DNA of 64,000 nt from Eledone cirrhosa. Lineage: Eukaryota. Position 1 is the first letter of the stretch, and each line of letters opens with the position of its first letter. This document shows positions 2,857-57,305 of this stretch, piece by piece. The stretch covers positions 23,312,001 through 23,376,000 of the forward strand of contig OZ024748.1 of NCBI GenBank assembly GCA_964016885.1, read 5' to 3'. Both the position numbers and the translations under genes were made by a program. Below the pieces are notes generated by a model that did no database searches, was not told the DNA's origin, and saw only the letters and a program-made list of their open reading frames with translations.

Positions 2857-3227
<371 letters not shown>

Positions 3228-9725: not shown

Positions 9726-9904
9726 CAAATATACATATTCATACATACATATATGTGTATATATATATGCAGAGGTTATATTTAATTTGTTGGGATTCAA
9801 CAAGCTTAAACATTTTTATAACTGATATAAAGCACTCAACAAGTAAGTGGAGTAAATACACAATATATTAATAAATGGAAACTATATTTATAAAACCATA
9901 TTTA

Positions 9905-9966
9905 TTTTATTATACATATTTCAAGGGCAACCAAGGCAAATTATGGTGCGCTTTCATCAGATAAAA
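9905..9966 (-). ncRNA. Type I hammerhead ribozyme
   Basis: ttttat-CTGATGA-aagcgcacc..ggttgccctt-GAAA-tatgta-TA/ataaaa. The host element ends at ~9769 in (TA)n. Confidence 0.75.
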
Positions 9967-10135
9967 TACAGATTTGTTTTATAAATAAATATTGACATAC
10001 CCGGAAAAAAGACAACCTTAATGGTTGGGGCTTCCTGGATAGTGGAGATAGTACATTTATTGAGGGTAATACAAAGTTATGAGTGAGTATGCAAATGAGT
10101 GTCCGAAAGGTTGAAAAGATAACGGTTTATTCGCT

Positions 10136-19993: not shown

Positions 19994-20532
19994 CAAGGTT
20001 TAGCAAATAAGATAAAGTTTCAAAATAAATTTTAAAAAATTAACTGTACTTACTATGGTTACCTTTACCGAGTCGGTTTCGATTCTCAAAAATAAACGGA
20101 GTCCATACGGCCTTCGTTGCAAAGAAAGAATCTCGTCAGAAGGATCTTTTCATTCGGAGAATATAAAATTCTCGAATTCAAATTACGAACTGGCGCTATT
20201 CAAAATTGTTCCCGAGATGAGAGTAAATGAAGTGGAATCAATTTTTTCAAGGGCCGAGTGTAAAGATAAAGGCAGAGGCAGAGAGGTCAGATGGCTACTG
20301 CTATAACTAACAGCAGTCAGAACGACCAAATTTTTCTCAACATAGAGGAGTATAGTAATAATAGGATATGTGTTCCTACACGCACAAGGCGCTAAGGGAC
20401 ACATGTATTGTCCAACCATATGCCAATGTGGTTCAATGGCAGGTTAATAAATTAACGAGCCAGAACATATATAATCAAGGTTTAGCAAATAAGATAAAGT
20501 TTCAAAATAAATTTTAAAAAATTAACTGTACT

Positions 20533-30679: not shown

Positions 30680-30772
30680 ATAATAATAATAATAATAATA
30701 AACAAGAAAGACTGATTTGTTCGTGCATCCCTATTTATTTTATTTTACGTATTTCAAAGACGTTTAGATAAA

Positions 30773-31138
30773 AATATTGTTCATGAATGTGAAGTAGAAA
30801 CGAGTAGTAAGAACTATAGATATATTGGTGCCACTTCTACTAGATTTAAGGAAAGGTGGTACAACCATCACCACTGAGCTGATAAAAGATCTAGCACAGC
30901 CCTGGCGGAACTGATTTGGTCGCTAAAAGGTAAACAAATGGAATACTCCCTTCCTTGGTCAAAACTCTCGCATGCTTTTCTATATATAAATGGATCTATA
31001 TCTAGGAGGTGTGACCTCTGTACTACTTAGACTTTACATGTCATAAATAGTAGGAATAACATTACTAACAAACGCTCTGATATTTTTAATTCTTGTTTAC
31101 ACAAAATGAATAAGACATTTCGTCAAGTATATAGTTAA
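30773..31138 (+). pseudogene. PLE GIY-YIG endonuclease C-terminal domain, 2 in-frame stops
   Basis: NIVHECEV..YRYIGATSTRFKERWYNH..STALAELIWSLK..W..RRCDLCTT*..NKRSDIFNSCLH. Stops at 30875 and 31028. Confidence 0.9.
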
Positions 31139-31851: not shown

Positions 31852-31854
<3 letters not shown>

Positions 31855-31957
31855 CGAAGGAAATGTGGTAAGGAACCAGATGGACCATAAAGCACCAAAG
31901 TACTCAATACTCAATACTCGAAACGGCTTGAGCTCAGCCGTCGGGGTCCTACTCGTT

Positions 31958-31962
<5 letters not shown>
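31852..31962 (-). mobile_element. Member of the 2977-family: 3' tail plus an inverted arm beginning at GAAAC
   Basis: Matches 3113-3172 (reverse) and 3050-3093 (forward). (TA)n flanks. Confidence 0.75.
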
Positions 31963-32442: not shown

Positions 32443-32479
<37 letters not shown>

Positions 32480-32713
32480 TTAGAAACACACAGATACATG
32501 CGGACACACACATATATACATGAATGCATCCGCACCCAACTGTGAGTTAAGGGTGCCAACTTCACCGATGTTGCTCAATGAATGACTGGGACAGACCAAT
32601 CCAGTTTGAACCAGACTGAACCAGTATCAGAGTTAAAAATACATTATGAAGAGAGAAGAAACATTTAGATATAATTAGTAATAAAATGTATCATACCTAA
32701 ACTGCTCCTAAAT

Positions 32714-32801
32714 TCCTCGACTACGTAGTTTCGTGGCATAAACAAAAACAATATATCAAAGATATAGAGTCCTTGCGAGGTCTGCCAACTTATCAAGAGG
32801 A
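32714..32801 (-). ncRNA. Type I hammerhead, U3-A8 core variant (unit 1)
   Basis: tcctc-TTGATAA-gttggca...tgccac-GAAAC-tacgta-GTC/gagga. Predicted cut between 32719 and 32718. Confidence 0.85.
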
Positions 32802-33304
32802 TACCTCATTTTACTAGTCTCAAGAACGCGTCTACACGACGTGAGAAAGAATCCCAAAAGGCGGAGGGGGAGATAGTCACGCGATATAACGGTCGAAAAA
32901 CAGAGCTAAGCCTCTTATAACCACGAAGAAAATACCACGGAGGCGGAGGGGGTATTCATATCGAGGCCGTAGAAGAGGTAGTGAAGAAGGCGAGAAGTAT
33001 GAGTAATGGAAGCTTTCCAGTTGTCCCCACACTTCAAAGATTGCTCGACCAGAGGGAGTTATTAATATATTTAGAAACACACAGATACATGCGGACACAC
33101 ACATATATACATGAATGCATCCGCACCCAACTGTGAGTTAAGGGTGCCAACTTCACCGATGTTGCTCAATGAATGACTGGGACAGACCAATCCAGTTTGA
33201 ACCAGACTGAACCAGTATCAGAGTTAAAAATACATTATGAAGAGAGAAGAAACATTTAGATATAATTAGTAATAAAATGTATCATACCTAAACTGCTCCT
33301 AAAT

Positions 33305-33392
33305 TCCTCGACTACGTAGTTTCGTGGCATAAACAAAAACAATATATCAAAGATATAGAGTCCTTGCGAGGTCTGCCAACTTATCAAGAGGA
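33305..33392 (-). ncRNA. Type I hammerhead, U3-A8 core variant (unit 2)
   Basis: Same sequence as unit 1. Confidence 0.85.
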
Positions 33393-33895
33393 TACCTCAT
33401 TTTACTAGTCTCAAGAACGCGTCTACACGACGTGAGAAAGAATCCCAAAAGGCGGAGGGGGAGATAGTCACGCGATATAACGGTCGAAAAACAGAGCTAA
33501 GCCTCTTATAACCACGAAGAAAATACCACGGAGGCGGAGGGGGTATTCATATCGAGGCCGTAGAAGAGGTAGTGAAGAAGGCGAGAAGTATGAGTAATGG
33601 AAGCTTTCCAGTTGTCCCCACACTTCAAAGATTGCTCGACCAGAGGGAGTTATTAATATATTTAGAAACACACAGATACATGCGGACACACACATATATA
33701 CATGAATGCATCCGCACCCAACTGTGAGTTAAGGGTGCCAACTTCACCGATGTTGCTCAATGAATGACTGGGACAGACCAATCCAGTTTGAACCAGACTG
33801 AACCAGTATCAGAGTTAAAAATACATTATGAAGAGAGAAGAAACATTTAGATATAATTAGTAATAAAATGTATCATACCTAAACTGCTCCTAAAT

Positions 33896-33983
33896 TCCTC
33901 GACTACGTAGTTTCGTGGCATAAACAAAAACAATATATCAAAGATATAGAGTCCTTGCGAGGTCTGCCAACTTATCAAGAGGA
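33896..33983 (-). ncRNA. Type I hammerhead, U3-A8 core variant (unit 3)
   Basis: Same sequence as unit 1. Confidence 0.85.
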
Positions 33984-34486
33984 TACCTCATTTTACTAGT
34001 CTCAAGAACGCGTCTACACGACGTGAGAAAGAATCCCAAAAGGCGGAGGGGGAGATAGTCACGCGATATAACGGTCGAAAAACAGAGCTAAGCCTCTTAT
34101 AACCACGAAGAAAATACCACGGAGGCGGAGGGGGTATTCATATCGAGGCCGTAGAAGAGGTAGTGAAGAAGGCGAGAAGTATGAGTAATGGAAGCTTTCC
34201 AGTTGTCCCCACACTTCAAAGATTGCTCGACCAGAGGGAGTTATTAATATATTTAGAAACACACAGATACATGCGGACACACACATATATACATGAATGC
34301 ATCCGCACCCAACTGTGAGTTAAGGGTGCCAACTTCACCGATGTTGCTCAATGAATGACTGGGACAGACCAATCCAGTTTGAACCAGACTGAACCAGTAT
34401 CAGAGTTAAAAATACATTATGAAGAGAGAAGAAACATTTAGATATAATTAGTAATAAAATGTATCATACCTAAACTGCTCCTAAAT

Positions 34487-34574
34487 TCCTCGACTACGTA
34501 GTTTCGTGGCATAAACAAAAACAATATATCAAAGATATAGAGTCCTTGCGAGGTCTGCCAACTTATCAAGAGGA
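34487..34574 (-). ncRNA. Type I hammerhead, U3-A8 core variant (unit 4)
   Basis: Same sequence as unit 1. Confidence 0.85.
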
Positions 34575-34892
34575 TACCTCATTTTACTAGTCTCAAGAAC
34601 GCGTCTACACGACGTGAGAAAGAATCCCAAAAGGCGGAGGGGGAGATAGTCACGCGATATAACGGTCGAAAAACAGAGCTAAGCCTCTTATAACCACGAA
34701 GAAAATACCACGGAGGCGGAGGGGGTATTCATATCGAGGCCGTAGAAGAGGTAGTGAAGAAGGCGAGAAGTATGAGTAATGGAAGCTTTCCAGTTGTCCC
34801 CACACTTCAAAGATTGCTCGACCAGAGGGAGTTATTAATATATTTAGAAACACACAGATACATGCGGACACACACATATATACATATATAAC

Positions 34893-35161
34893 AGGCTTAG
34901 CTCTGTTTTTCGACCGTTATATCGCGTGACTATCTCCCCCTCCGCCTTTTGGGATTCTTTCTCACGTCGTGTAGACGCGTTCTTGAGACTAGTAAAATGA
35001 GGTATCCTCTTGATAAGTTGGCAGACCTCGCAAGGACTCTATATCTTTGATATATTGTTTTTGTTTATGCCACGATACTACGTAGTCGAGGAATTTAGGA
35101 GCAGTTTAGGTATGATACATTTTATTACTAATTATATCTAAATGTTTCTTCTCTCTTCATA

Positions 35162-35167
<6 letters not shown>
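34893..35167 (+). repeat. 275-bp inverted partial copy of the 591-bp unit, with its HHR (35005-35092) mutated GAAA>GATA
   Basis: Reverse complement of 32639-32913, with T at 35076. Confidence 0.9.
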
Positions 35168-35207
<40 letters not shown>

Positions 35208-35313: not shown

Positions 35314-35384
35314 TATTTTATCTGATGAAAACACAAATGTTATTGCATGATGATATTTGTTTTTGAAATGCGCATAATAAAATA
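35314..35384 (+). ncRNA. Type I hammerhead ribozyme (intact)
   Basis: tattttat-CTGATGA-aaacacaaatgtta..tgatatttgttttt-GAAA-tgcgca-TA/ataaaata. Lies within element ~35203-35422 between (TA)n runs. Confidence 0.9.
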
Positions 35385-46406: not shown

Positions 46407-46750
46407 ATAAAGAAGAAATTAAAAGATGGTTAAAAGAGTTCCATATATTTTATTATGCGCATTTCGAATACAAAATCATCCTGGGACAAAAATTGTGTTC
46501 TCATCAGATAAAATACGGTATCATGATATGAGGCATAATAGCACTTGTTTACAGGAAAGTGGTAAGTTTACATATGTAGACGATGATTTTGTATTCGAAA
46601 TACACATAATAAAATATATGGAACTCTTTTAACCATCTTTTAATTTCTTCTTTATTATATATACTCCAGTTCTACCATCTGTTGAGTGCTACTTATCTGA
46701 TATATGCATAGTTTTATTGTTCTACAATATTACTCACCTTCTACATTATC
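46407..46750 (+). mobile_element. PLE-type element: inverted arm with intact HHR plus a 5'-truncated sense copy
   Basis: 46407-46480 inverted versus 46582-46656. Same family as 35203-35422. Confidence 0.8.
46446..46515 (-). ncRNA. Type I hammerhead ribozyme (intact)
   Basis: tattttat-CTGATGA-gaacacaa...ttgtattc-GAAA-tgcgca-TA/ataaaata. Confidence 0.9.
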
Positions 46751-57243: not shown

Positions 57244-57305
57244 CCGTTACATATATTTCACTGAGGACTATCTATCAGTTATGACAGCCTGAGCTCTTCA
57301 GACGG
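57244..57305 (-). ncRNA. Type I hammerhead ribozyme
   Basis: ccgt-CTGAAGA-gct..aggctgtc..gatagtcct..agt-GAAA-tatat-GTA/acgg. Lies between TA/TG microsatellites. Confidence 0.7.

What the first reader, a model, noticed from the sequence alone, without database searches (positions are those of the whole stretch)
32714..32801. Hammerhead core with compensated U3-A8 pair (UUGAUAA instead of CUGAUGA)
Seen: the core reads TTGATAA while stems I (tcctc/gagga), II and III, GAAAC and GTC are all intact. Known: C3-G8 is a tertiary Watson-Crick pair in the active fold, single changes impair catalysis, and the U3-A8 swap retains activity. Inference: two changes hitting exactly the paired positions indicate selection for cleavage. 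The variant is invisible to CUGANGA motif scans, which could explain why the family might be overlooked.
Basis: partly seen in the sequence, partly recalled or inferred. Interest (0 to 1): 0.75.

Follow-up and report, generated by a model that had tools for sequence, protein, structure and literature searches.

The report
U3-A8 hammerhead in Penelope-copied retrozyme
This is a real hammerhead-shaped RNA motif, predicted to cut itself only when two copies pair, inside a non-coding 591-base jumping repeat with about 7,300 copies in this animal genome; its swapped core pair has been published since 2011, so it is an ordinary new example.

Summary
About 7,300 copies carry U3-A8. It fits a non-LTR retrozyme likely copied by Penelope-like (PLE) enzymes: 29 of 33 two-armed insertions pair two fixed 3' ends, 165 nt apart. 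U3-A8 is published in nature (2011) and in PLE hammerheads (2014). Selection is only partly supported. The core did not change while subfamilies diverged about 25% (0 of 16 versus 144 of 493 columns, P=0.004). But the swap is inherited: no C3-G8 copy of this family was found, single changes at 3 or 8 occur at the neutral rate, and several other families share UUGAUAA. One coding PLE lineage among them also spread with a mismatched C3·A8 core, so an intact pair is not needed for that lineage to spread. Folding predicts an active dimer, not a monomer. Cleavage is untested, and 5' ends do not pile up at the cut site. The scan found this family, and the mismatched PLE lineage, before on other DNA of this genome.

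The parts
32714..32801 (-). Type I hammerhead motif, U3-A8 core (copy 1 of 4 identical); core 32790-32796, predicted cut 32719/32718
32790..32796 (-). Core UUGAUAA (U3 = 32796, A8 = 32791)
32733..32789 (-). Stem II domain, 57 nt: G10.1-C11.1, U-A, bulged pyrimidine, 4 more pairs, then a long extension hairpin
32720..32729 (-). Stem III, 10-nt palindrome; predicted to pair between two copies; A-U to G-C double change in the oldest subfamily
33305..33392 (-). Hammerhead copy 2 (identical)
33896..33983 (-). Hammerhead copy 3 (identical)
34487..34574 (-). Hammerhead copy 4 (identical)
32472..34885 (-). Long arm: 4.1 head-to-tail 591-bp units without a long ORF, 100% identical; 3' end at fixed site A (unit position about 48), next to (TA)n
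34887..35167 (+). Inverted short arm (281 bp, 99.3% identical); 3' end at fixed site B (unit position 474), next to (TA)n
35005..35092 (+). Fifth hammerhead copy in the inverted arm, with GAUA for GAAA (core broken)
32448..32479 (.). (TA)n target, left side
35165..35203 (.). (TA)n target, right side

Best explanation
The motif is a type I hammerhead with the known U3-A8 core, carried once per unit by a non-coding 591-bp tandem repeat (a non-LTR retrozyme) that is likely pasted into (TA)n by a Penelope-like reverse transcriptase-endonuclease, and it is predicted to cut slowly and only as a dimer. Shown: the motif, about 7,300 copies, (TA)n flanks, two fixed 3' ends, two-armed inverted insertions, and an unchanged core across subfamilies. 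Predicted by folding: one copy misfolds, while two neighbouring copies pair through the palindromic stem III. Inferred: read-through transcripts of tandem units are cut to monomers that may circularise; a PLE protein nicks both strands of (TA)n and starts reverse transcription at site A on one strand and site B on the other, on a circle or an uncut multimer. U3-A8 was most likely inherited from a wider PLE-related group of hammerheads, not selected anew in this family.
For: Copy counts with reversed controls. 89 of 91 outer 3' ends at two sites and 29 of 33 two-armed insertions with one of each, among loci at least 90% identical to the unit; this is the PLE 'tail' pattern (PMC11167929). Core and adjacent pairs: 0 of 16 columns vary among subfamily majority sequences versus 144 of 493 overall, P=0.004. 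94.7% of cells paired against 31-58% for slid controls; stem III keeps its palindrome through a double change in 3 rows. P(active monomer) 0.004; two copies fold at -59.7 against -46.8 kcal/mol; trans stem III probability about 0.68 in a natural two-motif stretch. UUGAUAA sits between complementary stems of different sequence in several other families (1,184 hits against 114 control), including the pseudo-LTR of a decayed coding PLE. U3-A8 active in vitro per PMC3088659 (citing a paper I could not read).
Against: No cleavage measured. 5' ends of arms show no peak at the cut site: 4 of 89 within 7 nt, 2.3 expected, P=0.19; 9 of 89 within 15 nt, P=0.04. A coding PLE lineage spread with C3·A8. 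Other parts of the unit are also conserved (GC-box-like repeats, the run before site B), so core conservation could reflect protein binding. Covariation in the 19-row alignment barely exceeds the shuffle control (10 of 500 for the score; 148-480 of 500 for the other four measures). No coding partner sharing this unit's sequence was found. In a PLE tested in vitro, hammerhead mutants did not affect insertion, and 8 of 9 frog retrozyme dimers did not cleave.
Confidence: 0.7

Rival explanations
1. The hammerhead fold is kept as a structural or protein-binding element of the PLE-type RNA end and rarely or never cuts in the cell; insertions are copied from uncut multimeric transcripts.
For: No significant pile-up of 5' ends at the cut site; 40 of 99 arms cross the cut site twice or more; a C3·A8 PLE subfamily amplified; hammerhead mutants did not affect insertion in vitro in another PLE; low or no activity of many PLE and retrozyme hammerheads.
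Against: Catalytic nucleotides, not only stems, are unchanged across about 25% divergence; in this family no mismatched core amplified among about 7,300 copies; a circular template would also give arms that cross the cut site.
Confidence: 0.22
2. One reading: C3-G8 changed to U3-A8 within this family under strong selection for efficient cleavage, and the motif is a fast monomeric ribozyme.
For: C3-G8 dominates in the genome (66 of 75 strict hits in 1.39 Mb of evenly spaced samples), so U3-A8 is the minority state.
Against: No C3-G8 member or close sister; U3-A8 already present in the oldest subfamily and in more distant relatives; the monomer is predicted to misfold.
Confidence: 0.06
3. An ordinary satellite with a chance resemblance to a hammerhead, spread by DNA-level amplification.
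For: Tandem units in the window are 100% identical; Rfam finds no hammerhead.
Against: Thousands of dispersed short arrays in (TA)n with fixed ends and inversions; conserved core and stems.
Confidence: 0.02

Closest known systems
U3-A8 minimal hammerheads of Cercyon PLEs, Schistosoma mansoni (Cervera and De la Pena 2014, PMC4209133; parts 1-2 of 4 read)
   Same: Type I, U3-A8 core, short stem I, long stem II, G10.1-C11.1, palindromic stem III region, proposed dimer activity, missed by the standard descriptor; a bulge inside helix II was described there for Drosophila virilis.
   Different: [quoted passage not shown]
Natural U3-A8 core variants (Perreault et al. 2011, PMC3088659; section 8 and passages read)
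   Same: Same covariation, stated to occur in several natural hammerheads and to be active in vitro.
   Different: Those are scattered examples; this is a high-copy animal repeat.
Metazoan non-LTR retrozymes (Cervera and de la Pena 2020, PMC7229834, parts 2-3 of 6; Li, Clavereau and Pollet 2026, 10.64898/2026.07.22.740005, parts 1-3 of 5)
   Same: Non-coding tandem units with one type I hammerhead each, thousands of copies, GC under 50%, self-paired predicted circle (z -5.8), proposed PLE-driven mobility.
   Different: 591 nt is above the 150-450 nt of the 2020 paper though inside the 51-972 nt of the preprint. Circular RNA is not shown here. The parts I read do not describe (TA)n-targeted two-armed insertions with fixed ends for retrozymes.
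Penelope-like elements: tail and inverted arm (Frangieh et al. 2024, PMC11167929, parts 1-2 of 4; Craig et al. 2021, PMC8557442, passages and section 11)
   Same: Partial tandems, inverted 5'-truncated arm, a tail on one end that reflects two start sites of reverse transcription, (TA)n targeting (Hydra, Naiad).
   Different: No ORF; the two ends are 165 nt apart against the 30-40 bp tail described; no coding partner identified by sequence.

Membership tests
Type I hammerhead ribozyme | Three stems around the core, closed at stem I | tested here: met
   (94.7% of cells paired; slid controls 31-58%)
Type I hammerhead ribozyme | Conserved core with a Watson-Crick 3-8 pair, GAAA and a UH cut triplet | tested here: met
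   U3-A8, GAAA, GUC; unchanged in subfamily majority sequences, U3 column unresolved in one group picked for position-3 variants
Type I hammerhead ribozyme | Match to an Rfam hammerhead model | tested here: not met
   the five C3-G8 motifs in the window were missed at the gathering score too
Type I hammerhead ribozyme | Self-cleavage after C17 | not testable with these tools
   indirect test by 5'-end pile-up not significant
PLE-type dimeric hammerhead | Short palindromic stem III that pairs between copies | tested here: met
   prediction only; palindrome kept by a double change
Non-LTR retrozyme | Non-coding tandem units, each with a type I hammerhead, many dispersed loci | tested here: met
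Non-LTR retrozyme | Expressed as monomeric linear and circular RNA | not testable with these tools
   no run on record as RNA was listed; contigs cannot tell circle from tandem
Non-autonomous PLE derivative | PLE insertion footprint (inverted arm, tail at one end, microsatellite target) | tested here: met
Non-autonomous PLE derivative | Sequence shared with the pseudo-LTR of a coding PLE | tested here: inconclusive
   no blastn hit to the one coding U3-A8 PLE family fetched; no PLE ORF remnant overlapped or directly abutted a family unit in the loci checked; other PLE families not surveyed
Autonomous PLE | ORF with RT and GIY-YIG | tested here: not met
   longest open frame in the array is 88 codons

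The most novel reading that the evidence does not exclude
This genome holds a natural series of hammerhead cores (C3-G8, U3-A8, amplified C3·A8) in PLE-type elements, in which non-coding retrozymes keep the 3-8 pair because they must cut and circularise, while coding PLEs can lose it because they are copied from uncut RNA. The 591-nt retrozyme would be copied as a circle from two start sites 165 nt apart, a tail four to five times longer than described. That would make testable what PLE hammerheads are for.
Probability: 0.25. Interest if true: 0.55.

Novelty: new member of a known kind. Interest (0 to 1): 0.22.

Why it matters
The U3-A8 swap itself adds nothing new. Two side points have some value. 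About 7,300 copies here and at least 1,000 more in other families are invisible to CUGANGA descriptors, so hammerhead counts in such genomes run low. And the contrast between a retrozyme lineage that never amplified a mismatched core and a coding PLE lineage that did bears on the open question whether PLE hammerheads need to cut at all.

Tried and rejected
Rfam at gathering score and at E up to 10: no hammerhead. Search for C3-G8 members or sisters: 0 with identical flanks; the two C3-G8 hits were not this family; 2 hits without resemblance to the family with the same stem II frame; the 99 listed hits with the same stem III and a shorter stem II were nearly all truncated or deleted copies of this lineage and showed no other family (read by eye). 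Coding partner: none found; Pfam gave one sub-threshold RT hit among 7 PLE-like fragments. Expression: no RNA holder listed, which is no evidence either way; 620-621-nt contigs in two runs fit a tandem or a circle equally. Cleavage scars: no significant peak. Circle versus multimer: insertion-private variants were shared by 22 of 126 same-arm and 15 of 123 opposite-arm copy comparisons, which does not separate a circle from an unsampled source array. RNA-editing signature: 7 A>G against 6 T>C among 26 shared private variants, so none claimed. Misfolding idea: U3-A8 lowers the gap to the active monomer fold (1.9 against 5.0 kcal/mol for a modelled C3-G8), but all forms are predicted inactive as monomers, so I do not use it. 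Primary kinetics papers (Przybilski and Hammann 2007; Nelson and Uhlenbeck 2008; Lunse et al. 2017) were not held, so rates for U3-A8 and C3·A8 rest on secondary statements. Supplements of the papers were not read and may list cephalopod or mollusc hammerheads of this kind.

Full report
Observation. On the minus strand, 32801-32714 reads as a type I hammerhead: stem I TCCTC/GAGGA, core TTGATAA, a 57-nt stem II domain opening with G10.1-C11.1, GAAA, an 8-nt palindromic insert, and GTC. Four identical copies lie 591 bp apart in an array at 32472-34885; an inverted 281-bp arm follows at 34887-35167, and both ends abut (TA)n. The fifth motif, in the inverted arm, has GAUA for GAAA. The array has no open frame over 88 codons. 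Rfam reports no hammerhead, but it also misses five C3-G8 motifs that my scan found in the window, so the miss is not due to U3-A8 alone.

Family size. An exact 25-mer over the core has 758 copies, control 0. A looser pattern for the U-bulge form gives 915, control 19, and the C-bulge form 6,442, control 3: about 7,300 motifs in 3.0 Gb. In 139 evenly spaced 10-kb samples, 66 of 75 strict hammerhead-like hits were C3-G8 and 1 was U3-A8, with 9 hits in the reversed control. C3-G8 families therefore dominate this genome.

Insertion anatomy. I merged 124 overlapping loci and the window into 73 sites. Among those at least 90% identical to the unit, 89 of 91 outer 3' ends fall at two positions, A (about 48) and B (about 474), and 29 of 33 complete two-armed insertions have one of each. 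The sites lie 165 nt apart across the unit junction, 80 and 245 nt downstream of the predicted cut. Inverted arms, a tail on one end and (TA)n targeting are PLE features (PMC8557442 and its preprint), and the tail was traced to two start sites of reverse transcription (PMC11167929). The described tail is 30-40 bp.

Position 3: 24 hits, 19 in the family (10 C, 5 A, 4 G; 3 at truncation or inversion junctions), all with A8. Position 8: 21 hits, 15 in the family (8 G, 5 U, 2 C), all with U3. No C3-G8 copy. The private-variant rate is 0.30% at A/T sites (slightly inflated because some loci were picked for variants), which predicts about 22 singles per site and well under one double. So the singles are decay after insertion, none amplified, and the young family can neither show nor refute covariation.

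Selection across subfamilies. Relatives range from 100% to about 73% identity. Among majority sequences of six groups, 0 of 16 core and core-adjacent columns vary against 144 of 493 overall (P=0.004); the U3 column was unresolved in one group because its members had been fetched as position-3 variants, and 20 of 20 copies fetched without regard to the core were U3-A8. In a 19-row alignment 94.7% of cells pair, against 31-58% when slid; stem III keeps its palindrome by an A-U to G-C change in 3 rows, and the bulged base varies freely. Against: the shuffle control is passed only by the covariation score (10 of 500), 4 rows there were picked as mismatches, and other stretches of the unit are conserved too.

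Folding. One copy is predicted to misfold (active fold probability 0.004). Two copies gain about 13 kcal/mol and form a 10-bp stem III between them; in a natural 730-nt stretch with two motifs that helix has probability about 0.68. This is the dimer design described for PLE hammerheads.

Origin of U3-A8. No C3-G8 sister was found. A pattern that excludes this family gave 1,184 further UUGAUAA hits, control 114. Eighteen fetched places show several families with different, mostly complementary stems: some homologous to this unit (L322, L309, L310 at 69-88% to older subfamilies), some not. One (L307, L308) is a decayed coding PLE with RT and C-terminal GIY-YIG, pseudo-LTRs 3.6 kb apart, and DKT and CxCX5C motifs like the Hydra clade (clade not tested by a tree). 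It shares no detectable sequence with the 591-bp unit. In that lineage, loci not picked for their core are 4 U3-A8 and 6 C3·A8, and one distant copy is C3-G8. With positions 3 and 8 masked, five C3·A8 copies and one U3-A8 copy form a supported branch (100/99; 17 rows, L109 not included); the root rests on one long branch, so the order of changes is open. A mismatched core therefore did not stop that coding lineage from spreading.

Cleavage in the cell. 5' ends of arms show no clear peak at the cut site (4 of 89 within 7 nt, P=0.19; 9 of 89 within 15 nt, P=0.04), and 40 of 99 arms cross the site at least twice (loci were chosen for holding the core). Templates were circles or uncut multimers; I cannot tell which.

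Literature. Natural U3-A8 covariation: PMC3088659 (section 8 and passages). U3-A8 in PLE hammerheads, about 1,300 hits, missed by the first descriptor: PMC4209133 (parts 1-2 of 4). Retrozymes: PMC7229834 (parts 2-3 of 6) and 10.64898/2026.07.22.740005 (parts 1-3 of 5). PMC6765202 and PMC7151607: passages. Searches for 'U3-A8', 'C3U' with 'G8A', 'C3-A8' (0 occurrences in the 10 listed) and octopus with hammerhead and Penelope did not show this family or an amplified C3·A8 lineage in print; supplements were not read.

Earlier scan notes. The same 591-595-bp family, a 320-bp U3-A8 family and the C3·A8 PLE subfamily were reported on other DNA of this genome. I had the two fixed ends and the C3·A8 copies before reading the notes on them, and the Hydra label followed leads from notes.

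Verdict. A real, conserved, probably dimer-acting hammerhead of a published variant, in a retrozyme of a known kind. Interest 0.22.

Noticed in passing
window 31853-31960: A roughly 100-bp two-armed remnant of the end of the coding U3-A8 PLE family (3' half of its hammerhead), between (TA)n runs, 500 bp from the array. Similar remnants near 3050, 17058 (minus-strand count), 3828 (minus-strand count) and 60981 (minus-strand count).
   Followed up: partly
window 35314-35384 (+), 46445-46516 (-), 9903-9968 (-), 57244-57305 (-), 20062-20143 (-): Five C3-G8 type I hammerhead-like motifs of other families, most with short, near-palindromic stem III; none reported by Rfam.
   Followed up: no
window 30716-31030 (+): Broken GIY-YIG endonuclease remnant of a Penelope-like element (38-63% identity to other PLE remnants).
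   Followed up: partly
L307 (G000:C1:92451500-92457000), L308: Decayed coding PLE, Hydra-like motifs, with a U3-A8 hammerhead with a long stable stem III in each pseudo-LTR; L308 is a two-armed insertion in (TA)n with two different ends.
   Followed up: partly
L066, L109, L118, L167, L211, L215: A subfamily of that PLE with a mismatched C3·A8 core at six independent loci; one U3-A8 copy (L324) nests inside it, and L086 is a distant C3-G8 relative.
   Followed up: partly
L313, L314: A 522-bp tandem family with UUGAUAA and GAAAC whose stems I and III I did not resolve.
   Followed up: no
L037, L046, L206; L193, L196: Two C3-G8 retrozyme-like tandem families (310-bp and about 467-bp units); up to 11 units of the 310-bp family seen in L206.
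   Followed up: no
591-bp unit, upstream of the hammerhead (window about 32856-32955): Two GC-box-like repeats conserved across all subfamilies, a possible internal promoter (function recalled, not tested).
   Followed up: no
runs X4, X5: 620-621-nt contigs about 99% identical to the unit in runs with two other organism labels; run type not on record.
   Followed up: no
L116/L117, L121/L122: Two insertions in which two tandem copies share the same position-8 change, so a mismatched core was either copied from the template or spread between neighbours after insertion.
   Followed up: partly
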